The translations under genes and the position numbers were made by a program. DNA of 61,817 nucleotides from the NCBI GenBank assembly GCA_041654915.1, contig JBAZCO010000001.1, forward strand, positions 1-61,817, written 5' to 3'. The notes under the pieces are model-generated. The model was given only the letters and a program-made list of their open reading frames with translations. It had not been told where the DNA came from and ran no database searches. The stretch is from Clostridia bacterium (lineage in GTDB: Bacteria > Bacillota > Clostridia > Christensenellales > DTU072). How positions within the stretch are numbered: position 1 is the stretch's first letter; each line of letters opens with the position of its first letter. Below, one piece after another: positions 1 through 61,817 of this stretch.

Positions 1-140
1 AAGGGATAAGATAATTTGGATGCCGTTTAACGATGAAGGCAAGAATATAGAAAAGGCTGCACATTCATTAAAGATTTATAAAACGGTCGGGGGGGGGGGG
101 TATTCCCTTACAGCGAGCCAAAGGAGTGGGATATCATGAT
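1..140. repeat. End overlap copy 1 (same as 61678-61817); circular closure of the contig
   Basis: 1-123 are identical to 61678-61800, including the G12 run. The only mismatches are 127/131/135 vs 61804/61808/61812. Confidence 0.95.
89..100 (+). repeat. G12 homopolymer inside the N6-adenine methyltransferase gene
   Basis: cggtc + 12 G + tattcc. The upstream ORF frame and the downstream NPPF frame differ by one nucleotide across the run. Confidence 0.95.
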
Positions 141-426
141 ATCTAACCCTCCCTTTTCAGGCAGAACACAGTTATTTGAGCAAATATTTTCATATGATAA
201 GCCATTTGTGCTATTACAGCCAGTACAGGCATTTAATAACACAAGTTTTGTGCAAATGCTATGCAATAGAAATGATGACATAGGAATAATCTGCCCAAGC
301 AAAAGAATGAGTTTTATTGTAAATAATAAAGAATATAAAAACAGTAGCACAGCCTTTTACTCTTTGTGGCTTTGCTACAAAATACCCTCTATAAAGGGAT
401 TTACAAGTTTGACTATCGACAGGTAA
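136..426 (+). CDS. N6-adenine DNA methyltransferase, catalytic C-terminal part (continues from 61568 across the junction; frame broken at G12)
   Basis: Motif IV is DIMISNPPFSGR, followed by KPFVLLQP. This frame is open back to base 82 (..GGGVFPYSEPKEWDIMISNPPF), so the ATG at 136 is internal. Confidence 0.8.
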   Translation: MISNPPFSGRTQLFEQIFSYDKPFVLLQPVQAFNNTSFVQMLCNRNDDIGIICPSKRMSFIVNNKEYKNSSTAFYSLWLCYKIPSIKGFTSLTIDR

Positions 427-487: not shown

Positions 488-676
488 ATGCCAGAAACCA
501 CAAAAATCAGAGTCTTTTCCACAGACAAAGTAGAATTAGCACCGTGTAATGAAGATAGAGCATATAGCCTTGTGCGCAAGCATAAGGCTTATTTTATCGT
601 TATAGACGGGCAAAGGGCTATTGTTATAAATAAGTCCTCCGAGCAAATAAGCATAAAGGAGGGCGATAACAAATGA
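488..676 (+). CDS. Small protein resembling the RRXRR/PLMP-type N-terminal domain of HNH/IscB-like nucleases, without a nuclease part
   Basis: 62 aa. IRVFSTDKVELAPCNEDRAYSLVRKHKAYFIV resembles the V.Vl...g.PLmPc...rAr.LL..GkA pattern. Stop overlaps the primase start (ATGA). Confidence 0.35.
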   Translation: MPETTKIRVFSTDKVELAPCNEDRAYSLVRKHKAYFIVIDGQRAIVINKSSEQISIKEGDNK

Positions 677-3615
677 GTAGAATAGATACCACGGATCTAA
701 AGTCAAGGTTTGACTTCGAAGGATATGTTGCCGCAAGAGTAAAAGGACTAAAAAAATCAGGCAGTCAGCATATCTGCCTTTGCCCTTTCCATGATGACAA
801 CACGCAATCCGCAAGCGTAGACTTTGATAACCATTTATTTAACTGCTTTGCCTGTGGGTCTGCTTTTGACAGCATAGGTTTTGTTATGGCATATGAAAAC
901 TGCGATTTTCACCGTGCTGTAGAAATAATGGGCGGAGCAGATTCAGAATTTAGGCTTATAGAACCACGAAAAATAACCTTTAAGGAAAAGGAAGTTACAT
1001 ATACACCCGTAAGGGGTGACATCAGGACTTGTTTAGACTATGAAAATCCTAAAGATAAACACAGCCCTTGGAAATTTGCTGCAGAATATGTTTACATCCC
1101 AGACAAACTCGTAAAGATAAGATATGAGTCAAGCAAATCCAACAAGAAAACTTTTCGCACATATCATAAGCAAGATGACGGCAAATGGTATTACGGCAAA
1201 GGGGATAATGTATTTCCCTTATATGCACCAAACGGCTATGACAGCGATACTATTATATTTGTAGAGGGCGAAAAGGATGTAGATTCTTTAATAGACATAG
1301 GCTATACGGCGGTTTGTACCGCATTCGGCGCAACAGAAGATGCCAGGCAACTCGACAAAGATGACATAGAGAACTTAAGAGAAAAATTAGTTGTTGTTAT
1401 ACCCGATGATAATGACAAAGCCGATGACATAGGCGGGAAATATGCCCGTGCTGTCGCAAATAAGCTAATCTTTAACGGTGTAACCGCAAGGGTATTCAAT
1501 TTAACAGAATTAAACACAGAAAATATACATGGCTATGACATTACGGATGCTATAGAGCAACACGGCGATGTATTTATAGCGGATAAGTTAGAAAAATTTA
1601 TTAAAGAATTGCCCGAAAACCAAACAGAACTTGTGCCTGTTAAATCGTACGGGTATACACAAGAACAAGATTTACAGATAGAACTGATAGCCAGTACACT
1701 TGCAAAGCATAATAATGACTGGACACAATGCCTACCGCAAGATACGGCTATGCGTGAACTGGCAAAAGAGCTAAATTGTGCCTTGCCCGCACTTAGGAAA
1801 ACAATAGAAAGACGGGCAGAAGAAATAAGAAAAGAGCATAATGTATTTTTAGCTAAAAGTAATGTTAAGAACACTATTGTGGAGATAGACAAAATCGCAA
1901 GGTCTATCAATATTAAGGGCAGCGGATATATTGTTGCTGAAAACGGCATGATAGTCACAGACGAAGGTGAAATCGTATGCAAGCAAATAATGCTACCCGT
2001 AGCCGAAGTACAAGACATTGACGGCAGCAGGATAGACGGCTCACATGTAATGCTTGCTTATGTGCCTATCGACGACAGCAATATACATTTAGGCCAGTTC
2101 CCGGCTTCTTCTTTGTCTTTAACCAATGACTTGATTAGAACTTTATCTACATGCGGACTGTCGGTTAACTCACAAAATTCGGGTGCGGTTATGGAGTACA
2201 TAGACAACATAAGAAACTGGTACAAGCAAAACGGACAGACAAGGATATTTAAGAGTGCAAACAGGCTTGGGTGGATAAAGCAAGGCGAACCTATATTCTT
2301 GCCATATGAGTATGATCCATTGACAATGATATACGGTACGGGAGTGGAAAAAAACACCATATCTAAAATGACAGCCACGGCAGGGGAAAGAGAAGAAAGC
2401 CGTAAACTTATAAAAGAAACATGCAAGGCAACAAATGTAATGACAACCATTATCGGTGCAACGGTCGCAAGTTTATTGTTAGGCTATTGCGACACAAACG
2501 GCGAAATGCAAGGCTTTGCTTTTAATGTGTACCATAAATCAGGTACGGGTAAATCTGTTATGACAGAAGTAGCCGCATCTATGTTCGGTAGCGGACAGTT
2601 TGTCAACGGTTGGTTCGGCATAGCAGATGCTACCTTGGCATCAGACAAAGGCAGAAATGCATACTATTATAATATGCCCTTATTTGTGGATGATATTGTG
2701 CGAAAGCGTGGGGAATTTAATGTACCCGTAACAGAACTGCCCAGAAGAAAAACACGTTATATTATGGGTGTAACGGGCGGGGAGGGCAGGAGCAGGCTAA
2801 ACCAGGCAGGGGAGTTTCGGGAAGTAGGAAACTGGTGTAATGTGGTTATACTCACAAATGAAGATAGGATGGTGGAAGATACCATGGACGGCGGTGCATT
2901 CTCAAGGTGCTTGGAAGTCCAACACACAGACTATCTTTCAGAGCAAACACTAACCGACTGGGTAAACCGATTCTCGGAACATTACGGACACTTTCCTTTG
3001 GATATCATAAACCAAATACGCACAAAAACACCCGAAGAGTGGAGGGCGGAGATATCCTTTTGGACGAACATGTATATAGCACTAGGTGTAACGGGAAAAA
3101 GAGCTTTATACGCAAGTTATATCCAAACAGGTTACAAGATAGCAAAAGAAGCCGTAGATATAGGCACAGAGTTTGACACGGACTGGTTTGCAAAAGAAAT
3201 CAAATCCGTAGGTGAAGTGGATGACGGCGCAAGGGCTTATATCAAGATTTTGGACTGGATTTCAACGCACACCGAATATTTGCGTGCAGAGGTGGACAAA
3301 AACGGAATAACAGTCGGATCATTGAACTATGACAAGCAAGGGAATAAGGTTGCAAGTATACCCGTAGCAGAACTTACAAAGGTCTGTAATCAGTATAATA
3401 TAAACAGGCAGTCACTTATAAACTATGCATACGAAACAGACAAGGCTGTCCGTGCATACGATGAAAACGATAAGGCCGCACCTGTAAGAGTGCAAATACG
3501 AGATGCAGAAATTAGGTGTATACAATTTTACTATGAATGGCTAAACAAAATGGTCGAATATGACGAGAGTGCAGATTATAATTATAAGCGCAGTTGGTAT
3601 GGAAGTGGGGTGTAA
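673..3615 (+). CDS. Primase-helicase: CHC2 zinc finger + TOPRIM + C-terminal P-loop NTPase
   Basis: CLCPFHDDNTQSASVDFDNHLFNCFACG (DnaG-type zinc finger). IIFVEGEKDVDSL and VIPDDNDKADDIGG (TOPRIM). YHKSGTGKS Walker A with FVDDIV Walker B-like. 980 aa. Confidence 0.85.
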   Translation: MSRIDTTDLKSRFDFEGYVAARVKGLKKSGSQHICLCPFHDDNTQSASVDFDNHLFNCFACGSAFDSIGFVMAYENCDFHRAVEIMGGADSEFRLIEPRKITFKEKEVTYTPVRGDIRTCLDYENPKDKHSPWKFAAEYVYIPDKLVKIRYESSKSNKKTFRTYHKQDDGKWYYGKGDNVFPLYAPNGYDSDTIIFVEGEKDVDSLIDIGYTAVCTAFGATEDARQLDKDDIENLREKLVVVIPDDNDKADDIGGKYARAVANKLIFNGVTARVFNLTELNTENIHGYDITDAIEQHGDVFIADKLEKFIKELPENQTELVPVKSYGYTQEQDLQIELIASTLAKHNNDWTQCLPQDTAMRELAKELNCALPALRKTIERRAEEIRKEHNVFLAKSNVKNTIVEIDKIARSINIKGSGYIVAENGMIVTDEGEIVCKQIMLPVAEVQDIDGSRIDGSHVMLAYVPIDDSNIHLGQFPASSLSLTNDLIRTLSTCGLSVNSQNSGAVMEYIDNIRNWYKQNGQTRIFKSANRLGWIKQGEPIFLPYEYDPLTMIYGTGVEKNTISKMTATAGEREESRKLIKETCKATNVMTTIIGATVASLLLGYCDTNGEMQGFAFNVYHKSGTGKSVMTEVAASMFGSGQFVNGWFGIADATLASDKGRNAYYYNMPLFVDDIVRKRGEFNVPVTELPRRKTRYIMGVTGGEGRSRLNQAGEFREVGNWCNVVILTNEDRMVEDTMDGGAFSRCLEVQHTDYLSEQTLTDWVNRFSEHYGHFPLDIINQIRTKTPEEWRAEISFWTNMYIALGVTGKRALYASYIQTGYKIAKEAVDIGTEFDTDWFAKEIKSVGEVDDGARAYIKILDWISTHTEYLRAEVDKNGITVGSLNYDKQGNKVASIPVAELTKVCNQYNINRQSLINYAYETDKAVRAYDENDKAAPVRVQIRDAEIRCIQFYYEWLNKMVEYDESADYNYKRSWYGSGV

Positions 3616-4059: not shown

Positions 4060-4655
4060 TGACAACAAGGTACATAAACGAACAAGGCGAGCCGATGGCA
4101 TTCTCTGAAATAAAGGGCGAAATCGATGTGCGAAACTATGAAGAATTGTGTGTTTTTCTGGGTGATTTTCGTAAGCCCATAACATCAGGCGATGGCAAAA
4201 TCTATAATGCAGATATAGGTAAGGCTGTCTGGGCTAACATAGTTTGCCGCAAAAAACCCGTTGCACACCAAAACAGCTTTGACTCTGAAAGTGTCTATCA
4301 GCTTATTGCCGAACTCGGGTTTAACGGTGATTTTCCCGCTATGCTTTATTTGTATGACCGTTTGAATATATCCGAAAGTAAATATTTAGCTATATGCAAG
4401 GACAATACAGACGAACGAAGTGCAATCTTTCGCTGGGCAAGAGAGGTTTTTTCACACGTAAGTAAAATCAATGCCGTACACGGAAACGGGAATGTAAATG
4501 TATTCCAATACGTAAGCATGTCGGACGATGTAGATATTGCAAGCGATAACCAATACGTTACACCCGAAAAAAATATCCAGGGCATACTCGAATTGTTTAG
4601 CGAACTTGCAGCAAACAAAGGGAAAGTAGGTGAACAAGATGAAGCAGTTGGATGA
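4059..4655 (+). CDS. Hypothetical protein; small-terminase candidate by position only
   Basis: 198-aa ORF immediately upstream of and overlapping the large terminase gene; no motif recognised. Confidence 0.4.
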   Translation: MTTRYINEQGEPMAFSEIKGEIDVRNYEELCVFLGDFRKPITSGDGKIYNADIGKAVWANIVCRKKPVAHQNSFDSESVYQLIAELGFNGDFPAMLYLYDRLNISESKYLAICKDNTDERSAIFRWAREVFSHVSKINAVHGNGNVNVFQYVSMSDDVDIASDNQYVTPEKNIQGILELFSELAANKGKVGEQDEAVG

Positions 4656-6159
4656 TGCCATAAATGACATCATAACTACGATGACAAACGCGGAAAAAAG
4701 GGAGTTTGCGGAACTTTTTACACCCACACTCTCAAGCTTGCTCCCGCCGGGCTTTTCCTTGTCGAACAAGCAAGCATTCTTTATGATCATGCGACAACAG
4801 GATAAATATACACCTATGCGTGAGTTTATCATGCTTTTAGGTGACAGGCATGGTGTAGATGTATCTTTTATTGCAGATAGACCCATAATACCAAAGGAAG
4901 GCTTATACGGCGGTTCGGGTAACTCTGGAAAGAGTTATATGTTATCTGCTTTAGGCTTAACCACAGCCGATACCTACGGCCTTGATGTGCGTGTATTTAC
5001 AGCCGAGAAGCAAGCCAAGTCTTTTAGCGGTGGTGTAGGCAAGCAAATATACGAATGGATAGAACCGCAGATAAAATCAAGGTATATAAGAAATGACGAA
5101 GAAAAAGCTATACTTACATTCCCGTCAGGCGGTACAATACATTTTTGCGGACTAGATAATGCTAATGCCTGGAAGAAATACAAGGGCGGAAATATAGCCC
5201 AAATGATATTTGACGAGGTAACGGAAATCGCACCTGAAAGCTATACAAAGCAGATAGGCGGTTGGTGCAGAAAATCGCCCAAGGCTTTCCAGATAGGGTA
5301 TACAGCCAATGCTTGTTCAGCAACAAATCCGCATGGGAAATTTGTTACATTCTATCGTGAGCGGTTTGTGGACGGCACAGGTAAAGATACTTTTTATCTA
5401 AAGGCCTTGCCAAAAGACAACCCTTTTATAGATTATGAATCATATAAGCGTGATTTAGAAAATCTAGGTGATCCTGTGTTTGCCGCACAGATGTTAGAGG
5501 GGCGTTGGGATATAATGCCGGCAGGAGATTTATTTAAGTCCGGCTGCACAAGAGAAGTTGCGGATATACCTGCAAGCGGAGTTACAAAGCGTGGCTGGGA
5601 TATAGCAGCAACTACAAAAAAAACATCAAACTATACCGCAGGAGTGAAAATGCGTTACCACGAAGGTATATACTATATCATGGATATAGATGTGTTCAAG
5701 GAAACACCCAATGAAAACGATAAGCGTATGCGGCTTAATGCACAAATAGATGGCAGAAATTGTGAGGTTGTAACCGAATTACAGCCCGGAGCCGCAGGCA
5801 AATATTTAGAAGAACATTTCAACAAAAAGCTGTTTAACGGCTTTACCCATAAATCTATCGGAGTACCAAACGATAAGGCTGTCCGTGCCAGACCTTTATC
5901 TGTTGCCTGTGCCAATGGTTTAGTCTGTATCTGGAGCAGCTGTAGAAATAAATACGAATTCTTAGAACAGCTTGTAGCTTTTCCCAACGGAGAAGATGAT
6001 GATATGGTAGATGCTTGTACCTTAGTTTTTAACGCAATCCAAGAACAAGTCGCAAATTATACGGGTAGCACACCGCAAACCAGTACAAAAAGCACAAGAA
6101 CGGATGTAAACAAAGTCGCTGCTGACAGGCTAAACAAAAGAGAAAGATGGAATTTTTAA
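4639..6159 (+). CDS. terL: Terminase large subunit
   Basis: Walker A GGSGNSGKS, Walker B MIFDEVTE, C-terminal nuclease-type acidic motif GEDDDMVDA. ATG 4639 has AGGTG 8 nt upstream; the track start 4630 is GTG. Confidence 0.8.
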   Translation: MKQLDDAINDIITTMTNAEKREFAELFTPTLSSLLPPGFSLSNKQAFFMIMRQQDKYTPMREFIMLLGDRHGVDVSFIADRPIIPKEGLYGGSGNSGKSYMLSALGLTTADTYGLDVRVFTAEKQAKSFSGGVGKQIYEWIEPQIKSRYIRNDEEKAILTFPSGGTIHFCGLDNANAWKKYKGGNIAQMIFDEVTEIAPESYTKQIGGWCRKSPKAFQIGYTANACSATNPHGKFVTFYRERFVDGTGKDTFYLKALPKDNPFIDYESYKRDLENLGDPVFAAQMLEGRWDIMPAGDLFKSGCTREVADIPASGVTKRGWDIAATTKKTSNYTAGVKMRYHEGIYYIMDIDVFKETPNENDKRMRLNAQIDGRNCEVVTELQPGAAGKYLEEHFNKKLFNGFTHKSIGVPNDKAVRARPLSVACANGLVCIWSSCRNKYEFLEQLVAFPNGEDDDMVDACTLVFNAIQEQVANYTGSTPQTSTKSTRTDVNKVAADRLNKRERWNF

Positions 6160-9100
6160 CTTATAGCAGAAAATCCCCTTGCACCTGAACTTGCGTTCAC
6201 AGCCTTTAACTCAGACAGTATCGCTCTCCACAATGCATTGCTTGTCGGCGGTACAGTAACTTCCAAAGTCCTATCTTCTTCTAATACATCATGCAAAGAC
6301 TGCATCTGTGGTGTAAACCATGATCTAATCGCATCTGATATTTCTTTTGCACTTGGTGCATTAAACTTATCTTGTGCTACACCCGCTCTCGCTTGTTCCA
6401 TTTGGATATTAATGTTTTGTGCGGATGTTTGCATATTAACCCTGCTTACAGCATTGGCTATATCATTGGCAAAGGCTTTAATAAACGGTGTGTTTTCAAG
6501 GGGGAATACAACTTCCGCTCCTGCTTCGCCTGCCTCTACATTCGATGCAAGCATGGTGGGTTTCCTTAGCATTTGTACGCCCCTTGCCGCCTGGATTATA
6601 CCGCCGTCAGCAAGCCGGGATAGTTTGCCGCCGCTCATTTTACTGTAACTTACACTGCCGCTTGTGCTTGTCGATAAGCTTTTCATTGTCTTGGAAAAGC
6701 CCGAGAGCATATCATTTAATCCTGTTGCAATCCTGCCTGTAAATTGTTCCATAAGTGTAAGCATGTTGTTAAGCATAGACTTAAAGCCACTTGTAGCCGT
6801 TGAGGTGTTGCTCTTTATACCGTCAGCAACACTGCTGGCGATTTTCTTGCCCTTGTCTTTATATTTGCTGGTAGATCCATCCGCTTTTTCTACTTCTTTG
6901 TAAACGGCTTCCATTGCGGTTTTAACGGATTTTGTATTTTTCTTGATGCCGTCACCAAAGCCCGTGACAAGCTTTTTGCCTGCTTCTTGTAGGTTAGTGA
7001 ATATCTTGTCCGGCAATGTTGTGTTGGAGTTACCTTTTGTTATTTCTGCCATTTCGCCCATAAGTTTTCCGTAGTCTGTCAACAGCCTGACAGCAGACCT
7101 TAATTCAGGGTTGGCAAGCCGCAGCTTATCATTAAGCCCTATCAGCTGCTTTTCGATTTTGGCTATATCATCCGCTAACTTTTGGACAGGATCTTTGGTA
7201 AACCAACCGATTATAGTATCTATTGTTCCGCTTAGCCCCGCAATAGCCGATACCTTGGTATAGGTTACGACATGCCCTGCAAACTCTTTCATGAAGCCCA
7301 CAAAATCTTCCATATCCCTTGAAAGTGAGGGCAACTTTACATTTAGCCTGGCAAGTGCAGGCGCTAAATTATCGCTTAATTCTTTCGCTACCTTTATAAG
7401 GCTTTGTGTGAATGTGATAAAGGCTTCTGTCAGCTGTACCAGTAATGCCGTACCAAGCCCGATGGCCAACGGCAATAGCCCGACCGATGCTATACTTGCA
7501 GCGCCGAGCAAAGCAGTAACCGCACCTATGGCGATAAGTAAATCTGTACCTATTTCTATTGCCTTGGCTATGTTTTCACCGTTCTCAAGCACAGGCTCCC
7601 ATGCAATACCTATCTGCTCTAAGCCTTTACCTATAGCCCAAATTTCAAGTATAAACAATCCTACGGCTACACCTACTTCTAGCAACATAGCTATACCAAG
7701 TCCAATAGCCAACGGCAACAGCCCTGCCGAAGCTACAGCCGCAACGCCGAGCAAGGCACAAACCGCACCGACAGCAACCAGTAACGCAGTGCCAAGCCCT
7801 ATGGCCGCTAAAACAGTATCGCCATGCTCAAGCACGGGTTCCCATGCTTTCCGTATTTCATCCAGACCTTTACCTATAGCCCAGATCTCAAGCAAGAACA
7901 GCCCTGCGGCTACACCTATCAAGGCAAGCATGGCAATACCTATGGCTATGGATGCCAATAAAGGTGTGCCAACCATACCAAGCACAGCACAAATTGCGCC
8001 TATAGCAACTAACAATGCAGTGCCAAGACCTATGGCTAATAATACGGTTTCACCGTTCTCAAGCACAGGCTCCCATGCAATCCTTATCTCATCCAAAGCC
8101 TTGCCTATAGCCCAAATTTCAGCTAAGAACAAAGCTGCAGCTGCACCGATTAACGCAAGCACTGCTATACCGATAGCTATATCTGCAACTAAACTTGCCC
8201 CTGCTTTTCCAAGTGCTGCCGTTATTGCACCTATAGCCGCAAGTATAGCCACACCTATGCCCATTGAAATAGCTACCGTTCCCGCATTTTCTATAACAGG
8301 CTCCCATGCAATACCGACTTGCTCTAACATTTTACCTAAGACCCAAATAGCACCTACAATCAAAATTGCAGCCGCAGCAACTTCTGCCAATATAACTAAA
8401 CCCATAGCAAGGTTTTTGGCCAAAGATGAAAGCTTGGGATTAAGTTGCCCTGTAGATTGGTTTAAAGTATCTACCGTTGTTGAATCAAGATCAACGGGTG
8501 GTGCTGCACTTGCGGCTTTACTTGCGGCCTTACCTGCTACCTTGCCCCCTACCTTACCTGCTACACCCTTTCCTGCGCCAAAGAGTATCTTCCCAGCTGC
8601 AAAAAGCTGTAAAGCATCGACAGCGGCCATTAGACCGTTGACAAACAACGAAAGCCATGCACTTGCATCGGAACTATCTTCTTTTAAAGCTTTAATATCA
8701 TCTGATATAAGCTTTACATCTGTTACAAGTTGCGCCACATTAAGCAATCCTAGCGCTGCTGCTGTACCTTTTCCCTCAAGACCGCCGCCACTAATGCCAC
8801 CGCCTGCACCGCCACCGCCTTTTGATAATAGTGCCTGCTCCTTATCCTCGGCCGTTTGCATTTTCTCTTGAAGTAGTTGCTCTTTATCCTCAGTTGTCTG
8901 CATTTTCTCCTGGAGTAACTGTTCTTTATCTTCGATGGTTTGCGACCGTTCTTGCAATAACTGCTCAATATCTTCTTGAGTTTGTGCTTTTTCTTGCAGC
9001 TTTTGCTCTATGTCCTCTTGAGTCTGTGCTTTTTCTTGTAATTTTTGTTCGATATCTTCTTGAGTTTGTGCTTTTTCTTGCAGCTTTTGTTCAATATCCT

Positions 9101-19517: not shown

Positions 19518-19883
19518 ATGGCAAGGAAAAGAGTTAATACAATGATTTTGGCTAACATGACAGAAGAAAGCAAGCAAAAATACTTGGCGGGGGAGTATGG
19601 TTTTGGCGATAAGGCAGACTTTATTTGCCATAAGTGTGGCATTATTAAGCATGTAACTATAATGGGCTATAGACCTGACAGCCTTTGCAGGTCTTGTGCA
19701 GCCAAAAGGCGCATGAAAGAACTACGGGTAAAAGATTACCTTTTCTGCGAGGATGTGCATCCGGCTGATCGTGAACTTGCCATGAGCGGTGAATACGATA
19801 CTGTGCGTGTATGGTGCAAAAAATGTGAAGATTTTATCTTACGCACAAAAGATGATAAGGTTTGTCCGGCATGCGGAGCATGA
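19518..19883 (+). CDS. Zinc-ribbon protein (2 units); N-terminal piece of the split paralogue B
   Basis: ADFICHKCGIIKHV..SLCRSCA and VRVWCKKCEDFILRTKDDKVCPACG. Stop at 19881-19883, 1 nt before ATG 19885. Confidence 0.6.
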   Translation: MARKRVNTMILANMTEESKQKYLAGEYGFGDKADFICHKCGIIKHVTIMGYRPDSLCRSCAAKRRMKELRVKDYLFCEDVHPADRELAMSGEYDTVRVWCKKCEDFILRTKDDKVCPACGA

Positions 19884-19884
19884 T

Positions 19885-21621: not shown

Positions 21622-22554
21622 TTAGCCAACTTCGGCTGCAAGCAACTTATGCACACCAAAGGCTACAGCCTTATCGTTTGTGTCAAGCCCATACACACTA
21701 ATATATGTGCCAGCCGAAACGCCACTAATTGTACCGCCGTCCTGAGTGGTTGTGCCGCCTGAAATCGGAGTGCCAACCGTAGGTCTGCTTCTTTCACCAA
21801 TAACATAAACGAACTCATCTATGCCTGTACCTGCAATGGTAATGTCAGTTTCACCTGCACCTGATCCAGCCTCAAATGAGAATGCATCGAAATCAGCAGC
21901 AGGAATAAATGCATCACCTGTCGGGAGTTGAACATTTTGGAACCAGTTATCCCACTTGGTTTTGTCAAAATCAACTCCGTCCTCGGTCATTGTCATAAAT
22001 CTAATGCCGTCGGCATTGATTACAGTGTTGTCCGATAATCTGGTTAATTCACCTTCGTAAAGCAAGTCTGTTATTCTACCTTCAAGCGGCAAATGCCCAA
22101 ACTCAACACCATCACCTTTTGTTTGCAATGCGTTTTCGCCTTCAGGAAAGATTGCATTATAAATTATATAACGTACCCTTTTCCTTTGGGCATTAAGAAC
22201 TTCAAATGCAACCGCAAGCTCTGGCGAGGCTTGACCCGCCATCATCACTGTTCCACCCGCATCGCTTACAACCCTACCTGTCACAAACTCATACCCGGCA
22301 GGGCCAAGACCCGTAACTTCAAGCGAAATATCTGCGGCTGCATAGTTAACTAACTGCTCATGTGTCTTATTGTCAGCATAATCACTCTCAATAGACCCAT
22401 TAGGTGTTATTGTGCCGCTCACAAGCCCGTCAATCCTGATGAGTTGTCCATAAGTTGGGAACGCACTTGCACTCCCTTTGTCCAGTATTTTTGCAAAGTG
22501 AAGCTTTGATAAGCCTATACTTGCACTGTTAAATGTTTCTATAGCATATGCCAT
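21622..22554 (-). CDS. Major tail (tube) protein with C-terminal Ig-like extension
   Basis: 310 aa, similar in outline to phi13/TP901-type tail proteins. The C-terminal G/T-rich ~90 aa looks like an Ig-like add-on. Position-based. Confidence 0.55.
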   Translation of the reverse strand: MAYAIETFNSASIGLSKLHFAKILDKGSASAFPTYGQLIRIDGLVSGTITPNGSIESDYADNKTHEQLVNYAAADISLEVTGLGPAGYEFVTGRVVSDAGGTVMMAGQASPELAVAFEVLNAQRKRVRYIIYNAIFPEGENALQTKGDGVEFGHLPLEGRITDLLYEGELTRLSDNTVINADGIRFMTMTEDGVDFDKTKWDNWFQNVQLPTGDAFIPAADFDAFSFEAGSGAGETDITIAGTGIDEFVYVIGERSRPTVGTPISGGTTTQDGGTISGVSAGTYISVYGLDTNDKAVAFGVHKLLAAEVG

Positions 22555-29771: not shown

Positions 29772-29801
29772 AATATACATCTGTCCTTATAACTTTGTCA
29801 A
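29772..29801 (-). promoter_or_regulatory. Candidate promoter for the minus-strand late operon
   Basis: The reverse strand reads TTGACA-18 nt-TATATT about 50 nt upstream of the portal ATG. Confidence 0.35.
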
Positions 29802-30292: not shown

Positions 30293-30377
30293 CTTTAACA
30301 AGCTTTCAGCCAAGACCAAAAATAAAAAATATCTTGCAATATATCTAAAATTATATTGCTTATTTTAGCTAAAACTA

Positions 30378-30635: not shown

Positions 30636-30648
30636 AGATGAAAAGCAA

Positions 30649-39753: not shown

Positions 39754-40431
39754 GTGAGAAACATTGCATACAACGTGGATTGCATGGTTGCCATGAAAGA
39801 TATGGCAGATAAAGAGTTTGATTTAGCGATAGTTGATCCGCCATATAGGATAGGTGTGGACACAGCGATGAGAAAGTCGGCAGGTACACAATATGGAAAC
39901 GCAGCAGCACCAAAGGCAACATACCACACAAGCGATTGGGATACAGAGCCACCAGCTGCAGAGTATTTTAATGAGCTTAGGCGAGTAAGCAAGAATCAAA
40001 TATTGTGGGGGGCTAATCATTATATAAGCAAGATGCCCATTGATAGTAGTTGTTGGATTGTTTGGGACAAAAAGAACGGTACAAATAACTTCGCAGACTG
40101 TGAACTTGCATACACAAGTTTTAATACAGCCGTTAGAAAGTTTGACTTTATGTGGAATGGGATGTTGCAAGGCGACATGAAGAACAAAGAGTTCAGAATC
40201 CACCCCACCCAAAAGCCGGTAGCCCTCTACAAGTGGCTACTCACGAACTACGCCAAAGAGGGCGACCTGATCCTTGATACACATTTGGGTAGCGGAAGTT
40301 CAAGGATAGCTTGTTATGATATGGGCTTTGACTTTACTGGATTTGAGATAGACAAAAATTATTTTGATGCACAAGAAGAACGGTTTAGGGTGCATACAAG
40401 CCAAATTAGGATGGAGGATTTGATGTTATGA
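39754..40431 (+). CDS. DNA methyltransferase, beta-class N6A/N4C (DPPY before the SAM motif)
   Basis: DLAIVDPPY near the N-terminus. IHPTQKPVALYKWLL..GDLILDTHLGSGSS at the C-terminus. GTG start. Confidence 0.85.
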   Translation: MRNIAYNVDCMVAMKDMADKEFDLAIVDPPYRIGVDTAMRKSAGTQYGNAAAPKATYHTSDWDTEPPAAEYFNELRRVSKNQILWGANHYISKMPIDSSCWIVWDKKNGTNNFADCELAYTSFNTAVRKFDFMWNGMLQGDMKNKEFRIHPTQKPVALYKWLLTNYAKEGDLILDTHLGSGSSRIACYDMGFDFTGFEIDKNYFDAQEERFRVHTSQIRMEDLML

Positions 40432-49888: not shown

Positions 49889-50104
49889 ATGAAACTAAGT
49901 GAATACATCAGCCGCATGAGAGAAATCCAAGAAGATATGTTCGACGGCGGGAAGCCAAGTGTTGAAGAGCTGATAGAACTAAGCCATCCTCAAGGTCTGG
50001 ACTTGCACTTGCTAACCGAGCAAGAGCTAGAAGTGATGATTGTAGGAATTAACAATGGGCTAGACACAATGGAAAAGGCGTATCTATATTTTGATGACGA
50101 GTGA
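49889..50104 (+). CDS. Small protein, paralogue of 51027-51239
   Basis: MKLSEYISRMREIQEDMFDGGKP vs MKLSEYISRMRAIRDDMYDGGKT. GGGAG SD before ATG 49889. Confidence 0.5.
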   Translation: MKLSEYISRMREIQEDMFDGGKPSVEELIELSHPQGLDLHLLTEQELEVMIVGINNGLDTMEKAYLYFDDE

Positions 50105-50714
50105 TAATAAACAACGAAGGCGAGATAGAAAAGTGAAGGTATTGAGTGGTAGCAGTTTAGCTGGTGGTACGCCAACAAGGGGTAGAGTAAAGGACGATTA
50201 TTACGCAACGCCACCTCAATCAACACAAGCGCTGTTAGATGTATTGGAACTAAACGGTTCGATGTTAGAGCCGGCTTGTGGAGAAGGTCATATAAGCGAA
50301 GTGTTAAAAAAGAATTATCCATGTAGCGAGATTGTATCAACCGACTTAGTCGATAGAGGGTATGGAGTTGGTGGAATTGATTTTTTAGAAAAAGAATACG
50401 ATAGAACGTTCGATAACGTGATAACTAACCCACCTTTTAAGTACATGCGGGAGTTTGTTGAGAAGTCTTTAGAGATTTCAACAGATAAAGTAATAATGTT
50501 CGGGAAAATACAATTTTTAGAAGGGCAAAGGCGAAAAGAGTTCCTTGAAAACTCACCATTAAAATACGTGTACGTGTTCAGCGAACGTCAAAACCCGATG
50601 AGAAATGGTAGTCCTGTTGATGGAAATGGCAAGAAATGGTCATCCACAATGTGTTTCGCATGGTATGTGTGGGAACAAGGTTATCAAGGAGAGCCGATAA
50701 TTAGGTGGCTATAA
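50091..50714 (+). CDS. N6-adenine DNA methyltransferase
   Basis: YYATP, LEPACGEGHI (motif I), VITNPPF (motif IV). Confidence 0.85.
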   Translation: MMTSDNKQRRRDRKVKVLSGSSLAGGTPTRGRVKDDYYATPPQSTQALLDVLELNGSMLEPACGEGHISEVLKKNYPCSEIVSTDLVDRGYGVGGIDFLEKEYDRTFDNVITNPPFKYMREFVEKSLEISTDKVIMFGKIQFLEGQRRKEFLENSPLKYVYVFSERQNPMRNGSPVDGNGKKWSSTMCFAWYVWEQGYQGEPIIRWL

Positions 50715-53157: not shown

Positions 53158-53325
53158 GTGAAAAAACCAACCGTTAGGCAATGCAAGCTAATAGAAAAAA
53201 GATTAGGTTTAGATCCTACTAAATATCTTGTCAGGAGATGGAATCCGGTTAAAGACGGTAAAATAGAAGTTTGCCTTGTAAGCAGGAAAACAGGGGAGAA
53301 AGTATGGAAAACGATAATAACATGA
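53158..53325 (+). CDS. Small basic protein (55 aa, GTG start)
   Basis: GAGGTGG SD. VKKPTVRQCKLIEKRLGLDPTKYLVRRWNPVKDGKIEVCLVSRKTGEKVWKTIIT. Confidence 0.4.
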   Translation: MKKPTVRQCKLIEKRLGLDPTKYLVRRWNPVKDGKIEVCLVSRKTGEKVWKTIIT

Positions 53326-53477
53326 TTTGCAAGTCAGTGTCAGAAAACCAACGCGGCAATATATGGCTGTCTAATCATTTGGGTAGCATAACAACAAGGG
53401 GGGGGGAAGCCAGGGCAAGGCTATCCTTGCATACTGTCTTTTCAGCCAAGGCTGCAGTCAATGGATATACAATATGA
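53304..53477 (+). CDS. N-terminal variable-region fragment of the permuted C5-MTase (out of frame with the main ORF at G9)
   Basis: MENDNNMICKSVSENQRGNIWLSNHLGSITTRGG.. with a GGGGAG SD. With 8 or 11 G it would read into KPGQGYPCILSF..MDIQYEH. Confidence 0.55.
   Translation: MENDNNMICKSVSENQRGNIWLSNHLGSITTRGGEARARLSLHTVFSAKAAVNGYTI
53398..53406 (+). repeat. G9 homopolymer
   Basis: acaacaa + 9 G + aagcc. Confidence 0.95.
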
Positions 53478-54987
53478 ACATATTGGCACACTATGTACAA
53501 CAGATTATAAAGGAGAGAGGTGTTTACTTGCAATGGAACCTATAAATTACGCGATTGACAGCATGTCATCTAACAGCATGAAATCAAGCAATCCGCACAG
53601 CGGAATACACAAGGAGAACTATGTGAAAACAATAGATACGAATGGCAATAACCCTGCTTGCAACCAAGGGGGAAATATGATTGTTTATGCTTTATCAAGC
53701 CCATGTAAAGGAGAAAGTGGGGGTTTAACGTACATGCCAATGAAGCTACGTGTAAGAAAAATTACAGAAAGAGAGTGTTTGCGTCTTATGGGGTTGCCGG
53801 ACGATTGGTTTGATGGTGCAGATTTGCCAAAAACAAGACAGTACCAAATAATTGGAAACGGACTTGTAACAGGTAAAGATTCCTATTTTTGGTATATGTG
53901 GCAAAACATCTATAAGCTACTGAACAAGAAAAGACCAACAGTTTTCTCACAATTCAGCGGTACAGGCATGACAGAATATATAACGGATGAATTAGGTTTT
54001 TTTACAGTTTATGCAAGCGAAATAGACGAATCTGCAAATAAAGCTCATGCCAACCTGCAAAGAAAAGGCATACTTGATAGAAGAACTCGAAACCTAGGTG
54101 ATATCACGAAGGTAAGTGGATATAAAATCAGACCTTGTGATGTAATTTTCTCTTCAAGCCCTTGTCAAAGTTTTAGTCATGCAGGGAAAGGCGAGGGGGA
54201 GGATGGTGAAAGCGGCTTGATATGGGAAACCATAAGGACTGCAAGGGAAATGCTTGAGGCTACAAACGGTAGATATCCAAGCGTAATAGCAACAGAAAAT
54301 GTTGCAGGTGAGCTTTCGCACAAACACTTTTTAACTAAGTTTCTTATTGCGCTTGACAGGATGGGCTATGCCATTGACATTCAACTTCACAATGCACTTG
54401 ATTATAACGTAGCACAATCAAGGGAAAGAGTTGCAATTGTAGCAATAAAAAAAGAGTTGGTTGACGGGAACAGCTTTGAGGAGCATAGGCATAACAGGGT
54501 GCAAAGGGTCTTGAAGAAAACAAATGCAGATATACAGCTTTTTTCTGGCATAGCAACCTTCCCGCACGAGCCCAAAAAAAGCAACTTAATCGACTTTATA
54601 GATGATAATGTAGACGAAGAATATGACCTATCCGAAAGGGCATGTATGGGAATATTGCGCAGGGCATATCAAAGGGAAAAAGAAATCCCGGCTATTCTTG
54701 CATATGCGCTTATGGTGCAAAGCGGCGATTTGTACTATGAAAGTGAATATGACAGCAAGCACGGGAAGGTAGATGGCAATAAACTTAGGGAATGGTATGC
54801 AGATATTATTGATAAAGGTTTTGAGAAAGTTGAACTGCCTGTGTGCCTTGAAAATCATGGTACAGATAGCAGGATCAAGATAAAGGAAAATGAAACACCA
54901 ACTGTAACTTCAAGATGGGGAACAGGTGGCAATAATATGGCACTGGTGCTAGATGTCATAAATGACACTGGGGGGGGTATAACGTGA
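53461..54987 (+). CDS. Circularly permuted DNA (cytosine-5) methyltransferase, main ORF
   Basis: Order: IX RKITERECLRLMGLPDDW, X QYQIIGNGLV, I FSQFSGTG, II ASEIDESA, IV SSSPCQSFSHAGK, VI IATENVAG, VIII QSRERVAIVA, then a variable C-terminus ending ..DTGGG. Confidence 0.8.
   Translation: MDIQYEHIGTLCTTDYKGERCLLAMEPINYAIDSMSSNSMKSSNPHSGIHKENYVKTIDTNGNNPACNQGGNMIVYALSSPCKGESGGLTYMPMKLRVRKITERECLRLMGLPDDWFDGADLPKTRQYQIIGNGLVTGKDSYFWYMWQNIYKLLNKKRPTVFSQFSGTGMTEYITDELGFFTVYASEIDESANKAHANLQRKGILDRRTRNLGDITKVSGYKIRPCDVIFSSSPCQSFSHAGKGEGEDGESGLIWETIRTAREMLEATNGRYPSVIATENVAGELSHKHFLTKFLIALDRMGYAIDIQLHNALDYNVAQSRERVAIVAIKKELVDGNSFEEHRHNRVQRVLKKTNADIQLFSGIATFPHEPKKSNLIDFIDDNVDEEYDLSERACMGILRRAYQREKEIPAILAYALMVQSGDLYYESEYDSKHGKVDGNKLREWYADIIDKGFEKVELPVCLENHGTDSRIKIKENETPTVTSRWGTGGNNMALVLDVINDTGGGIT
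54970..54977 (+). repeat. G8 homopolymer
   Basis: gacact + 8 G + tataacg. Confidence 0.95.
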
Positions 54988-55187
54988 CGCACAACAGAAC
55001 AGGTACACTGCGGTCGGCTTGTCAGTCTGTATTTTTAGTTGAAGCTTCGCCACAAGATAAAAAGAAGACTCGTTGCTTTAGTGGTGATTTTGCTGCAAGA
55101 AAAGAGTCTGAACATTATCCAACCATAACAGGCAACCATGCAAAAGTAAGTGCTGATTTGCTGATCATCCTAGAGGAAAAAGAATGA
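54984..55187 (+). CDS. Possible C-terminal extension of the permuted C5-MTase (joined if the tract is G9)
   Basis: The frame is continuous with the MTase after a +1 G. Contains ..NRTGTLRSA.. and ..YPTITGNH... Its stop overlaps ATG 55184. Confidence 0.4.
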   Translation: MTHNRTGTLRSACQSVFLVEASPQDKKKTRCFSGDFAARKESEHYPTITGNHAKVSADLLIILEEKE

Positions 55188-55819
55188 AAATATTAGAACT
55201 GTTTGCAGGAACAAGGTCAATAGGCAAAGCATTTGAACAGAATGGACATAAAGTCTTTTCTGTTGATTGGAGCAAGGATTTTGAAAATATTGACTTATAC
55301 GCAGATATTCTTGCCTTAACTCGTGATGATATCATCAATAAGTTTGGCTATCCGGATGTAATCTGGGCAAGCCCTGACTGCACAACCTATAGTGTTGCAG
55401 CAATTAGTCATCATAGGCGACGCGAAGAAAGTGGAAATTTAGCTCCAATTTCTGAATATGCCAAGTTTTGCGATGAAGTAAATAAGCATGTACTTTATTT
55501 AATCGAATCCCTTTCTCCTAGATTTTGGTTTATTGAAAATCCACGGGGGGGGCTAAGAAAGATGGACTTTATGAAAGATTTGCCTAGATATACAGTTACG
55601 TATTGTCGGTATGGAGATACAAGAATGAAGCCTACGGATATCTGGACAAATCATCCAAACCCAAAATTTAAGCCTATGTGTAAAAATGGTGATCCTTGTC
55701 ATATTGCTGCACCACGTGGCTCAAGAACTGGCACGCAAGGAATAAAGGGAAGCATCAAGCGATCTATAATTCCAAATGAATTATGCCAACATATTGCAAG
55801 CATATGTGAAGAAAGGTGA
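55184..55819 (+). CDS. Small C5-MTase-like methyltransferase with an internal G8 run (in frame)
   Basis: I ILELFAGTRSIG. IV-like IWASPDCTTYSVAA (Cys retained, PDC instead of PC). VI FIENPRGG (the GG is coded by the G8 run). 211 aa. Confidence 0.7.
   Translation: MKILELFAGTRSIGKAFEQNGHKVFSVDWSKDFENIDLYADILALTRDDIINKFGYPDVIWASPDCTTYSVAAISHHRRREESGNLAPISEYAKFCDEVNKHVLYLIESLSPRFWFIENPRGGLRKMDFMKDLPRYTVTYCRYGDTRMKPTDIWTNHPNPKFKPMCKNGDPCHIAAPRGSRTGTQGIKGSIKRSIIPNELCQHIASICEER
55545..55552 (+). repeat. G8 homopolymer
   Basis: ccac + 8 G + ctaag. Confidence 0.95.
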
Positions 55820-61581: not shown

Positions 61582-61813
61582 CACTTATGTTTCAATGAAT
61601 AAATCTCATGATGAGTGTTATACACGCTTGCCTGATGCTTTGGATATGTTTTCCTTTTTACAAAAGCATATAAGTTTAAGGGATAAGATAATTTGGATGC
61701 CGTTTAACGATGAAGGCAAGAATATAGAAAAGGCTGCACATTCATTAAAGATTTATAAAACGGTCGGGGGGGGGGGGTATTCCCTTACAGCGAGCCAAAG
61801 GAGGGGGGTATAA
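61568..61813 (+). CDS. N6-adenine DNA methyltransferase, N-terminal part (runs into G12; continues at base 82-426 in another frame)
   Basis: ..DECYTRLPDAL..DKIIWMPFNDEGKNIEKA..KTVGGGG. Overlaps the parB stop. Confidence 0.7.
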   Translation: MANSNTYVSMNKSHDECYTRLPDALDMFSFLQKHISLRDKIIWMPFNDEGKNIEKAAHSLKIYKTVGGGGYSLTASQRRGV

Positions 61814-61817
61814 TGAT
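61678..61817. repeat. End overlap copy 2
   Basis: See 1-140. Confidence 0.95.
61766..61777 (+). repeat. G12 homopolymer (second copy of 89-100)
   Basis: Same context as 89-100. Confidence 0.95.

What the first reader, a model, noticed from the sequence alone, without database searches (positions are those of the whole stretch)
89..100. G12 tract splits an N6-adenine methyltransferase spanning the junction
ORF 61568-61813 (..ECYT.., ..IIWMPFNDEGK.., ..KTVGGGG) enters a 12-G run. With 12 G that frame stops at TGA 137-139. The catalytic half (..EWDIMISNPPFSGR..KPFVLLQP..) is open from base 82 to 426 in the frame that 13 or 10 G would join, giving one MTase of about 180 aa. A 12-nt G run in an AT-rich genome is very unlikely by chance. 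It is the classic substrate for slipped-strand ON/OFF switching.
Basis: partly seen in the sequence, partly recalled or inferred. Interest (0 to 1): 0.7.

Follow-up and report, generated by a model that had tools for sequence, protein, structure and literature searches.

The report
Poly-G switches in phage methyltransferase genes
A circular 61.7-kb phage genome has runs of 8 to 12 G inside three of its DNA methyltransferase genes, and related phages carry two of these runs at other lengths, so the phage most likely turns these DNA-marking enzymes on and off by replication slippage.

Summary
The window is a circular phage contig whose first 126-140 bases repeat at its end. One G12 run (89-100, also 61766-61777) splits a small NPPF methyltransferase gene (MT_A). 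With 12 G the frame stops at TGA 137-139. With 7, 10, 13 or 16 G it gives one protein of about 168 aa, colinear with single-ORF homologues.

Related phages from other samples have the same run between identical flanks. One has G10 and an intact 168-aa ORF. Another has G7, in frame, but with two later nonsense changes. dN/dS across the joined frame is 0.10.

The run is not alone. All four G runs of 8 or more in the genome (0.16-0.23 expected) lie in methyltransferase genes. G9 and G8 both break a permuted C5 methyltransferase, MT_B. Another G8 is in frame in a second C5 enzyme, MT_C, where 58 homologues interrupt the run. About 30 coding A/T runs break no frame.

Best reading: slipped-strand contingency loci that switch phage methyltransferases. 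The mechanism is known in bacteria. Poly-G in a phage methylase gene is known from Bordetella phage BPP-1. Read-level heterogeneity could not be tested.

The parts
61595..61765 (+). MT_A 5' part, codons 1-57. An alternative GTG start at 61568 overlaps the end of the ParB-like gene 60454-61581. Bases 61678-61765 are the same as window 1-88.
   Evidence: The N-terminal DECYT and IWMPFNDEG motifs are conserved in homologues (alignment A1).
89..100 (+). G12 tract of MT_A, identical to 61766-61777. Lengths of 3n+1 (7, 10, 13, 16) give the full-length enzyme. Length 12 is out of frame, one step from 13.
   Evidence: Relatives have G10 (L154) and G7 (L155) between identical flanks ACGGTC|TATTCCC.
137..139 (+). 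TGA that ends the upstream frame when the tract is 12 G.
101..426 (+). MT_A 3' part. It holds the catalytic NPPF motif (codons at 145-156) and the rest of the Rossmann domain. The frame is open from 82 to 426.
   Evidence: (PF13651 over residues 69-163)
53304..55187 (+). MT_B, a circularly permuted C5 cytosine methyltransferase. It is 627 aa when tract 1 is G8 and tract 2 is G9. Its stop overlaps the MT_C start (ATGA).
   Evidence: (PF00145, 145.6 bits)
53398..53406 (+). G9 tract 1 of MT_B at codons 32-34. It is out of frame as assembled and needs 8 or 11 G.
   Evidence: The relative L065/L073 has G10 in frame at the same site with a conserved N-terminus. dN/dS upstream of the tract is 0.07.
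54970..54977 (+). G8 tract 2 of MT_B near codon 557. It is out of frame as assembled and needs 9 G. The frame then runs 67 more codons to 55187.
   Evidence: BLASTP to the canonical homologue P0175 runs unbroken across this site.
55184..55819 (+). MT_C, a small C5 cytosine methyltransferase of 211 aa, intact as assembled.
55545..55552 (+). G8 tract of MT_C. It encodes the RGG of motif VI (ENPRGG) as CGG GGG GGG and is in frame.
   Evidence: All 58 IMG/VR homologues with the motif interrupt the run, for example AGGGGCGGG.
39754..40431 (+). N6/N4 (DPPY) methyltransferase. It holds the only G6 run of the genome (40007-40012) and has no long tract.
50091..50714 (+). A fifth methyltransferase-like ORF with weak MTS and EcoRI_methylase matches. 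It has no tract.
61678..61817 (.). Terminal overlap with bases 1-140, which closes the circle. The last 14 nt diverge at 3 positions (T>G, A>G, C>A).

Best explanation
The G12 run is a slipped-strand contingency locus inside a phage gene for a small NPPF, adenine-N6-type methyltransferase. It is one of four such loci that control three of this phage's orphan DNA methyltransferases.

During phage DNA replication the G:C homopolymer gains or loses a base at high frequency. In MT_A, lengths of 3n+1 give the 168-170-aa enzyme. Other lengths end translation 12 codons (12 G) or 15 codons (11 G) after the tract. That leaves the SAM-binding half (beta1-beta3) separated from the catalytic half (beta4 with NPPF onward).

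The assembled genome is MT_A OFF (12 G, needs 13), MT_B OFF at both of its tracts (9 needs 8; 8 needs 9) and MT_C ON (8). Every OFF tract is one step from ON. A burst would then contain genomes with different methyltransferase sets, so progeny would carry different methylation patterns.

This would be a bet-hedge between protection from host restriction-modification and exposure to methyl-dependent restriction, or simply the cost of methylation.

Shown here: the tracts, the frame logic, their excess and exclusive placement, the length differences between relatives, and purifying selection on the joined frames. Inferred: the high switching rate, reversibility, the DNA substrate and target motifs, and the selective benefit.
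For: (1) Frame logic.

(2) One protein, not two. PF13651 passes its cut-off. Homologues are single ORFs covering 89-98% of the joined protein. AlphaFold gives one Rossmann domain at pLDDT 84, with the tract in the loop between beta3 and beta4. The nearest folds are adenine-N6 methyltransferases.

(3) Relatives from other samples. L154 (about 92% nt identity) has G10 and an intact 168-aa ORF. L155 (about 88%) has G7. The window has G12. The flanks are identical and the gene has no other indel. At MT_B tract 1 the window has G9, out of frame. L065 has G10 at the same site, in frame, with a conserved N-terminus.

(4) dN/dS is 0.10 for MT_A (0.05 upstream and 0.135 downstream of the tract) and 0.07 for MT_B, including the codons upstream of tract 1. 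The frame breaks are therefore recent.

(5) Excess and placement. There are 4 G runs of 8 or more against 0.16-0.23 expected, and a G12 is expected 3e-4 to 5e-4 times. A, C and T runs are as expected. All 4 lie on the sense strand of methyltransferase genes, which make up about 7% of the genome.

(6) Codon choice. GGG is 12% of Gly codons and CGG is 4% of Arg codons. None of 57 Gly-Gly pairs in 19 other genes is GGGGGG. All 58 MT_C homologues with the ENPRGG motif interrupt the run.

(7) No general homopolymer error. About 30 coding A/T runs of 7-8 break no frame, whereas 3 of the 4 long G runs sit 6-10 nt from a frame end.

(8) Precedent. The bpm methylase gene of BPP-1 holds a G8 run, the only G/C run of 8 or more in that genome (PMC4791379 and bioRxiv 10.1101/2025.10.21.683753, both citing Liu et al. 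2004).
Against: No reads were available, so length heterogeneity within one phage population is not shown.

A second assembly (ENA ERZ27247346, 62,114 bp) has identical lengths of 12/9/8/8. This may come from the same reads, or it may mean the lengths are stable.

Three of four tracts are out of frame here, while all three tracts seen in relatives are in frame. That asymmetry would also fit errors or decay specific to this genome.

L155 carries two nonsense changes in MT_A and L065 has an A7>A6 frameshift in MT_B, so these genes are dispensable and can decay.

Part of the tract 1 difference from L065 is two A>G substitutions, not slippage.

Tract 2 of MT_B and the MT_C tract have no close relative to compare with.
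Confidence: 0.68

Rival explanations
1. Assembly or sequencing miscount. The true tracts are in frame (13 or 10, 8, 9 G) and uniform, and the consensus is off by one because long poly-G is hard to read.
For: G12 is long enough for Illumina indel errors. The contig was cut next to the tract, and its last 14 nt carry G-biased mismatches. L065 ends about 60 nt before MT_B tract 2. All three tracts seen in relatives are in frame.
Against: Three separate miscounts would be needed, in both directions (-1, +1, -1), two of them at only G8 and G9. Meanwhile A8 and T8 runs in coding sequence are all in frame. A second assembly gives the same lengths. Miscounting would not explain why the tracts exist only in methyltransferase genes, against codon usage.
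Confidence: 0.12
2. Decaying genes. The tracts are only mutational hotspots, and the methyltransferases are being lost in this lineage with no adaptive switching.
For: MT_A in L155 has two nonsense changes. MT_B in L065 has an A-run frameshift. MT_A and MT_B are broken here. A homologue of MT_C (L062) is frameshifted at a G6 run.
Against: dN/dS is 0.07-0.13 on both sides of the tracts, and the window shows no other defect in 2.4 kb of MT_A plus MT_B. Every broken tract is exactly one step from ON. Uninterrupted G runs were built and kept against codon bias at sites where homologues interrupt them. The tracts are conserved at about 90% nt divergence.
Confidence: 0.13
3. Recoding at expression level. 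The 12-G allele is the working form, and full-length enzyme is made by programmed ribosomal frameshifting or RNA polymerase slippage on the G run.
For: A G run is slippery for tRNA-Gly and for RNA polymerase. Some leaky expression from OFF alleles is plausible.
Against: The RNA downstream of G12 has no structure beyond shuffled controls (z = +0.41). The three broken tracts need shifts in different directions (-1, +1, -1). Relatives carry in-frame lengths, so no fixed recoding site is conserved.
Confidence: 0.05

Closest known systems
[quoted passage not shown] 2004, as cited in PMC4791379 and bioRxiv 10.1101/2025.10.21.683753)
   Same: A homopolymeric G run on the sense strand inside a phage-encoded orphan DNA methyltransferase ORF. 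A G8 was verified in NC_005357 bpm and is the only G/C run of 8 or more in that genome. [quoted passage not shown]
   Different: BPP-1 has one tract in one gene, a DPPY N6/N4-type enzyme, in a 65% G+C genome of a proteobacterial podovirus. This phage has four tracts in three genes (one NPPF enzyme and two C5 enzymes), up to 12 G, in a 40% G+C siphovirus-like genome with Firmicutes-type genes. The original paper could not be read here.
Phase-variable restriction-modification methyltransferases and phasevarions of bacteria (Helicobacter pylori, Campylobacter, Neisseria, Haemophilus)
   Same: Slipped-strand changes in G/C homopolymers inside methyltransferase ORFs switch the enzyme ON or OFF. Several such genes can occur per genome, and sometimes two tracts occur in one gene (10.1101/2024.05.05.592563, PMC3936762, PMC5700931).
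   Different: Those are chromosomal genes, usually part of Type I, II or III systems, and they change host gene expression or restriction. Here the genes are orphan methyltransferases on a virus, so the unit that varies is the methylation of the viral DNA itself.
Hypermutable polyG tracts of Campylobacter Fletchervirus phages (Sorensen et al. 2021, Cell Rep 35:109214, cited)
   Same: Tracts of 7-11 G inside phage ORFs create mixed phage populations.
   Different: Those tracts sit in receptor-binding protein genes and vary host recognition. They do not affect DNA modification.
Contingency loci of coliphages T2 and T4 (bioRxiv 10.1101/2025.10.21.683753)
   Same: Short homopolymers in phage genes give reversible frameshifts, interpreted as bet-hedging.
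   Different: Those are mostly runs of 6 or more bases spread over many functional classes. Here the long runs are G only and confined to methyltransferase genes.
Pfam PF13651 EcoRI_methylase-like small phage methyltransferases, often annotated as 'sugar-phosphate nucleotidyltransferase' or 'DNA methyltransferase' (P-SSM2, phiYS40, Fnu1)
   Same: Same size, DECYT N-terminus, NPPF motif and colinear alignment over 89-98% of the length.
   Different: No homologue at 45% identity or less has a G run at this loop. Their target and substrate are untested.

Membership tests
Simple-sequence-repeat contingency locus (phase-variable gene) | Homopolymer of about 7-8 nt or more inside the reading frame | tested here: met
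   G12 at 89-100. G9, G8 and G8 in MT_B and MT_C.
Simple-sequence-repeat contingency locus (phase-variable gene) | Tract length sets the frame, and the gene is otherwise intact in the alternative frame | tested here: met
   dN/dS is 0.07-0.13 on both sides of the tracts.
Simple-sequence-repeat contingency locus (phase-variable gene) | Tract more frequent than base composition predicts | tested here: met
   4 G runs of 8 or more against 0.16-0.23 expected. A G12 is expected 3e-4 to 5e-4 times. The codon choice is atypical.
Simple-sequence-repeat contingency locus (phase-variable gene) | Length polymorphism between closely related genomes with conserved flanks | tested here: met
   MT_A has 12, 10 and 7 G. 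At MT_B tract 1 the window is out of frame by one base against in-frame L065. Tract 2 and the MT_C tract have no close relative.
Simple-sequence-repeat contingency locus (phase-variable gene) | Mixed lengths within one population, with high-rate reversible switching | not testable with these tools
   No reads were available. The only hints are the contig cut next to the tract and the divergent contig tip.
N6-adenine methyltransferase, PF13651 EcoRI_methylase-like (MT_A) | Profile match above the curated cut-off | tested here: met
   31.8 bits against a cut-off of 26.4, but only residues 69-163 are matched.
N6-adenine methyltransferase, PF13651 EcoRI_methylase-like (MT_A) | Catalytic motif IV, (D/N/S)PP(Y/F) | tested here: met
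   NPPF at residues 77-80, invariant in 20 homologues.
N6-adenine methyltransferase, PF13651 EcoRI_methylase-like (MT_A) | Class I Rossmann SAM-methyltransferase fold | tested here: met
   AlphaFold pLDDT 84 and pTM 0.84. Foldseek hits include 3ufb, Dim1, TrmM, M.TaqI and M.BseCI, with E 4e-5 to 1e-3 and TM 0.5-0.6.
N6-adenine methyltransferase, PF13651 EcoRI_methylase-like (MT_A) | Glycine-rich SAM-binding motif I (FxGxG) | tested here: inconclusive
   The equivalent position reads IWMPFNDEG (consensus IWxPFDxxxS), which is not a canonical FxGxG.
N6-adenine methyltransferase, PF13651 EcoRI_methylase-like (MT_A) | Methylates adenine in DNA rather than RNA | not testable with these tools
   The nearest folds include both DNA and RNA adenine methyltransferases.
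C5 cytosine DNA methyltransferase PF00145 (MT_B, MT_C) | Profile match and motifs I (FxGxG), IV (PC), VI (ENV) and VIII (QxRxR) | tested here: met
   MT_B scores 145.6 bits and has all these motifs, in permuted order (IX-X before I-VIII). MT_C scores 20.9 bits, just under the cut-off of 22. It has motifs I, IV and VI and is 76-79% identical to proteins with a recorded PF00145 hit.
Programmed ribosomal frameshift site | Conserved slippery site with a downstream stimulatory RNA structure and one fixed shift direction | tested here: not met
   The fold z-score is +0.41. The three tracts need -1, +1 and -1 shifts. Relatives are in frame.
Phasevarion (methyltransferase switch that re-programmes gene expression) | A regulon changes with the ON or OFF state | not testable with these tools
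   No expression or methylome data were available.

The most novel reading that the evidence does not exclude
The phage runs a combinatorial epigenetic switchboard. Four independent poly-G switches in three orphan methyltransferases (one adenine-type, two C5) give up to eight methylation states among the progeny of one lineage. These states are selected as a bet-hedge between classical restriction-modification and methyl-dependent (Type IV) restriction in Clostridia-like hosts of anaerobic digesters. The same trick recurs in unrelated phages: BPP-1 bpm, and a group of 120-139-kb IMG/VR phages with a G7-G10 tract in a C5-methyltransferase-like region.
Probability: 0.4. Interest if true: 0.75.

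Novelty: new member of a known kind. Interest (0 to 1): 0.55.

Why it matters
Phage-encoded methyltransferases are usually treated as fixed anti-restriction equipment. If a phage switches several of them stochastically, its DNA methylation pattern becomes a variable trait. Host range against restriction-modification and methyl-dependent restriction would vary with it, within one burst. That would be a viral counterpart of bacterial phasevarions.

There are practical consequences too. Such tracts split genes into 'hypothetical' fragments, here pieces of 82+96 aa and 57+484+67 aa. They break contigs next to the tract. They also make methylation motifs appear partially modified in virion DNA.

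The case is well suited to testing. Three genes and four tracts sit in one 61.7-kb genome, and ON and OFF alleles already exist in public data.

Tried and rejected
- **Frameshift stimulator:** RNA folding of 82-220 gives z = +0.41, so there is none.
- **Close relatives of the whole phage:**
  - megablast against INPHARED found nothing;
  - the best TerL match in cultured phages is 28% identical;
  - TerL found nothing in IMG/VR;
  - an exact flank pattern found nothing in IMG/VR or JGI metagenomes;
  - MT_A found nothing in GTDB genomes and only relatives of 38% identity or less in JGI metagenomes.
  - The useful relatives came from cluster members and exact-protein look-ups.
- **Host:** there are no tRNAs and no Rfam hits. 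Only indirect signs point to Clostridia or Firmicutes:
  - YopX, RecU/Hjc, DUF1351 and a VanY plus PG_binding endolysin;
  - the best MT_B hits in Monoglobales, Ruminococcus and Oscillospiraceae phages;
  - one relative binned in a Clostridiaceae MAG.
  - Those gut phages have no G/C runs of 6 or more near their methyltransferases.
- **C7/C8 runs upstream of MT_C homologues in IMG/VR loci:** they looked variable but are a PPTPP/PPLPP linker differing by a substitution, in a non-methyltransferase protein. Rejected as irrelevant.
- **Liu et al. 2004:** not held in the library, so the BPP-1 tract was checked directly in the genome.
- **Split two-subunit enzyme:** I considered that the 96-aa ORF 136-426 (AAGGAG 11 nt upstream of its ATG) works with the 82-aa piece as a two-subunit enzyme. 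This was not tested. The AAGGAG is explained by the conserved K-E codons, and homologues are single chains.

Full report
**What the window is**

Bases 1-140 recur at 61678-61817. The overlap is exact for 126 nt and then has three mismatches in the last 14 nt. The window is therefore a circular contig of 61,677 bp, with 40.1% G+C.

It encodes these proteins:

| Feature | Coordinates |
|---|---|
| Large terminase | 4630-6159 |
| Portal | 28401-29723 (-) |
| Prohead protease | 27175-28368 (-) |
| Major head protein | 25379-26473 (-) |
| Major tail protein | 21622-22554 (-) |
| Tape measure protein, 1,773 aa | 6156-11477 (-) |
| Primase of the DUF927 type | 673-3615 |
| VanY plus PG_binding endolysin | 55980-57320 |
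| Tyrosine recombinase | 37210-38028 |
| RecU/Hjc resolvase | 48793-49215 |
| YopX | 49260-49640 |

It is a complete siphovirus-like phage genome with no close cultured relative. Its relatives come from anaerobic-digester metagenomes.

**The observation**

G12 lies at 89-100 and, as the same tract, at 61766-61777. The gene, here called MT_A, starts at ATG 61595 or at GTG 61568. It crosses the circle junction and enters the tract after codon 57.

- With 12 G the frame ends at TGA 137-139.
- The frame carrying EWDIMISNPPFSGR is open from 82 to 426.
- Tracts of 10, 13 or 16 G join the two frames into 168, 169 or 170 aa.
- Tracts of 9, 11, 12, 14 or 15 G do not.

The protein is a little shorter than 'about 180 aa', and the genome is only moderately AT-rich.

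**It is one gene**

- The joined protein passes Pfam PF13651 EcoRI_methylase at 31.8 bits against a cut-off of 26.4.
- It aligns colinearly over 89-98% of its length with single-ORF proteins of 165-220 aa from phages and metagenomes.
- Twenty homologues share invariant residues on both sides of the tract, including the DECYT, W-PF and SNPPF motifs.
- AlphaFold2 on that alignment gives one compact Rossmann domain (pLDDT 84, pTM 0.84).
- The tract-encoded glycines (58-61) lie in a lower-confidence loop between beta3 and the strand that carries NPPF.
- Foldseek finds adenine-N6 methyltransferases of DNA and RNA: a type I M subunit, Dim1/KsgA, TrmM, METTL16, M.TaqI and M.BseCI.
- A sequence-only search of the PDB found nothing significant.
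- Adenine-N6 chemistry is thus well supported. DNA as the substrate is inferred from context.

**Comparative test of the tract**

The 90% clusters of the two MT_A fragments contain two other proteins, and their DNA was fetched. The alignment shows identical flanks (ACGGTC | TATTCCC) and no other indel in the gene.

| Source | Identity to window | Tract | State |
|---|---|---|---|
| Window | - | G12 | frame broken, otherwise intact |
| L154 (Logan ERR3345678) | about 92% nt | G10 | intact 168-aa ORF |
| L155 (SRR3166067, anaerobic digester) | about 88% nt | G7 | in frame, but TGC>TGA and TAC>TAA downstream |

Between the window and L154, dN/dS in the joined frame is 0.10. It is 0.05 upstream and 0.135 downstream of the tract. 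Both halves have therefore been kept as one protein until recently, and the break in the window is young or reversible.

**The tract is not alone**

The genome has four G runs of 8 or more: G12, G9, G8 and G8. It also has one G6 and no G7. Between 0.16 and 0.23 runs of 8 or more are expected. A, C and T runs match a first-order Markov expectation. All four long runs, and the G6, lie on the sense strand of methyltransferase genes, which occupy about 7% of the genome.

*MT_B (53304-55187).*

- It is a C5 cytosine methyltransferase (PF00145, 145.6 bits).
- Motifs IX and X precede motifs I-VIII, so it is circularly permuted.
- G9 at codons 32-34 and G8 near codon 557 each break its frame.
- G8 plus G9 would give one 627-aa ORF that ends in an ATGA overlap with the next gene.

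Both tract sites are coding:

- A canonical homologue, P0175, aligns without a break across the tract 2 site. Its TRD segment aligns across the tract 1 site.
- A relative at about 89% nt identity (L065, the same contig as L073, in a biogas 'Clostridiaceae' MAG) has a G10 at the tract 1 site. It is in frame, with the N-terminal 31 codons conserved at dN/dS 0.07.
- Relative to that in-frame state the window carries one extra base. The longer run in L065 comes partly from two A>G substitutions.
- L065 ends about 60 nt short of tract 2.

*MT_C (55184-55819).*

- It is a small C5 methyltransferase from a very large and conserved family.
- Its G8 encodes the RGG of motif VI as CGG GGG GGG and is in frame.
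- In the 58 IMG/VR homologues that carry the motif, the same residues are always encoded with an interrupted run, such as AGGGGCGGG.

*Codon usage.* In 19 other genes of this phage, GGG is 12% of glycine codons and CGG is 4% of arginine codons. None of 57 Gly-Gly pairs is GGGGGG. The homopolymers are a derived feature specific to this lineage, built against its own codon usage.

**Is it an artefact?**

About 30 A/T runs of 7-8 nt inside long ORFs cause no frame break. By contrast, three of the four long G runs sit 6-10 nt from the end of an open frame. The assembly therefore has no general homopolymer problem.

The three breaks need corrections in different directions: +1, -1 and +1 base. A second assembly (ENA ERZ27247346, 62,114 bp) is identical over about 12 kb, including all four lengths. 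It may derive from the same reads.

The contig was opened next to G12, and its last 14 nt carry G-biased mismatches. This fits a branch in the assembly graph at the tract, caused either by length heterogeneity or by read errors. A miscount at G12 alone remains possible. Three miscounts, plus tracts confined to methyltransferase genes, is a poor explanation.

**Other rivals**

*Recoding.* The RNA after G12 folds no better than shuffles (z = +0.41). The required shifts differ in sign, and relatives are in frame. Some leaky transcriptional slippage on 12 G cannot be excluded, but it would only soften the OFF state.

*Plain decay.* MT_A in L155 and MT_B in L065 do carry real defects, so these genes are dispensable. 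Even so, low dN/dS, the absence of any other lesion in the window, tracts one step from ON, and maintenance of uninterrupted runs at conserved sites all argue for loci kept as switches.

**Mechanism proposed**

Slipped-strand mispairing during phage replication changes tract lengths. Each methyltransferase is then ON or OFF in a given genome. The sampled genome is MT_A OFF, MT_B OFF and MT_C ON.

Progeny DNA is methylated according to the genotype that infected the cell, so a lineage continually produces virions with different methylation patterns. The likely benefit is bet-hedging between protection from restriction-modification and sensitivity to methyl-dependent restriction, or the cost of methylation.

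The phage also carries two more methyltransferase-like genes without long tracts (39754-40431 and 50091-50714). It also has a weak MetK-like ORF (47349-48137, below the Pfam cut-off).

The benefit, the switching rate and the target motifs are inferences.

**Relation to what is known**

- SSR-driven phase variation of methyltransferases is classical in bacteria such as H. pylori, Campylobacter, Neisseria and Haemophilus (for example 10.1101/2024.05.05.592563, PMC3936762).
- In phages, polyG tracts in Fletchervirus receptor-binding genes (Sorensen 2021) and contingency loci in T2 and T4 (bioRxiv 10.1101/2025.10.21.683753) have been described.
- I confirmed a sense-strand G8 in bpm, the only G/C run of 8 or more in that genome.
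- Literature searches found no description of a phage with several methyltransferases each carrying such tracts.
- I file this as a new member of a known kind. The multi-gene, methyltransferase-only arrangement is its unusual aspect.

**A possible second example**

Among 80 IMG/VR loci with distant MT_B homologues (1.0 Mb), four of the five G/C runs of 8 or more fall at one site of a C5-methyltransferase-like region. The site belongs to a group of 120-139-kb phages. With identical flanks, nine contigs show G7 (five contigs), G8 (two), G9 (one) and G10 (one).

G8 restores SGCAGGGKGAL, which sister loci encode as GGT GGT GGC. That gene also has an in-frame stop and a frame change at the PCQ motif in both members I translated, L123 and L133. 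Its status is therefore unclear.

Noticed in passing
window 61804-61812 (compare 127-135): The last 14 nt of the contig differ from the start copy at three positions (T>G, A>G, C>A), which creates a spurious G6. The exact overlap is 126 nt. The contig was opened 88 nt before the G12 tract and ends 40 nt after it. This suggests a graph branch or low-quality reads at the tract.
   Followed up: partly
window 53304-55187: MT_B is a circularly permuted C5 methyltransferase, with motifs IX-X ahead of I-VIII. A T-x-T-S/T-R-x-G-x-GG segment is present at both ends. It resembles the middle of a tandem double methyltransferase (P0130), as expected if the permutation arose by duplication and truncation.
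   Followed up: partly
IMG/VR loci L123, L125, L126, L129, L132, L133, L137, L139, L143 (tract at about 6550 in most): An unrelated group of 120-139-kb phages (43% G+C) has a G7-G10 tract (7 in five contigs, 8 in two, 9 in one, 10 in one) with identical flanks in a C5-methyltransferase-like region. G8 is the in-frame length. The two members translated (L123, L133) also share an in-frame stop and a frame change at the PCQ motif. It could be a pseudogene, recoding or an alternative genetic code.
   Followed up: partly
L066 5630-5638; L065 about 2495; L062 about 5232: Homologues in other phages are broken at other homopolymers. There is an A9 in the 30%-GC MT_B homologue of L066, an A6 in L065 against the window's A7 at 54574-54580, and a G6 in the MT_C homologue of L062 (PRGA* instead of PRGGM).
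   Followed up: no
L155 174-780: In the SRR3166067 relative, MT_A has the shortest tract (G7, in frame) but two nonsense substitutions (Cys TGC>TGA, Tyr TAC>TAA). The gene is dead in that lineage.
   Followed up: yes
window 47349-48137: This ORF has a weak match to the N-terminal domain of S-adenosylmethionine synthetase (31.4 bits, cut-off 33.1). If real, the phage may top up the methyl donor for its five methyltransferases.
   Followed up: no
window 11497-13593 (-) and 19789-21579 (+): Two large paralogous HNH or homing-endonuclease-like ORFs (698 and 596 aa; phrog_559 and phrog_3339) sit inside the structural gene block. One of them is on the opposite strand to its neighbours.
   Followed up: no
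window 29800-33300: This AT-rich stretch has few ORFs and most of the genome's non-coding A/T runs. It contains iteron-like direct repeats: 31 nt x 2.6 at 30930-31010 and 17 nt x 4.6 at 32287-32364, both 96% identical. It may be an origin or a regulatory region between the divergent structural and early modules.
   Followed up: no
window 119-138: AAGGAG lies 11 nt upstream of the ATG at 136, which opens the 96-aa C-terminal ORF. Independent translation of the catalytic half in the OFF state is conceivable. However, the hexamer is explained by the conserved Lys-Glu codons.
   Followed up: no
window 37210-38028: A tyrosine recombinase (Phage_integrase, 93.6 bits) is present, so the phage may be temperate or use it to resolve dimers. 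No prophage copy was found in GTDB genomes with the two queries used.
   Followed up: no
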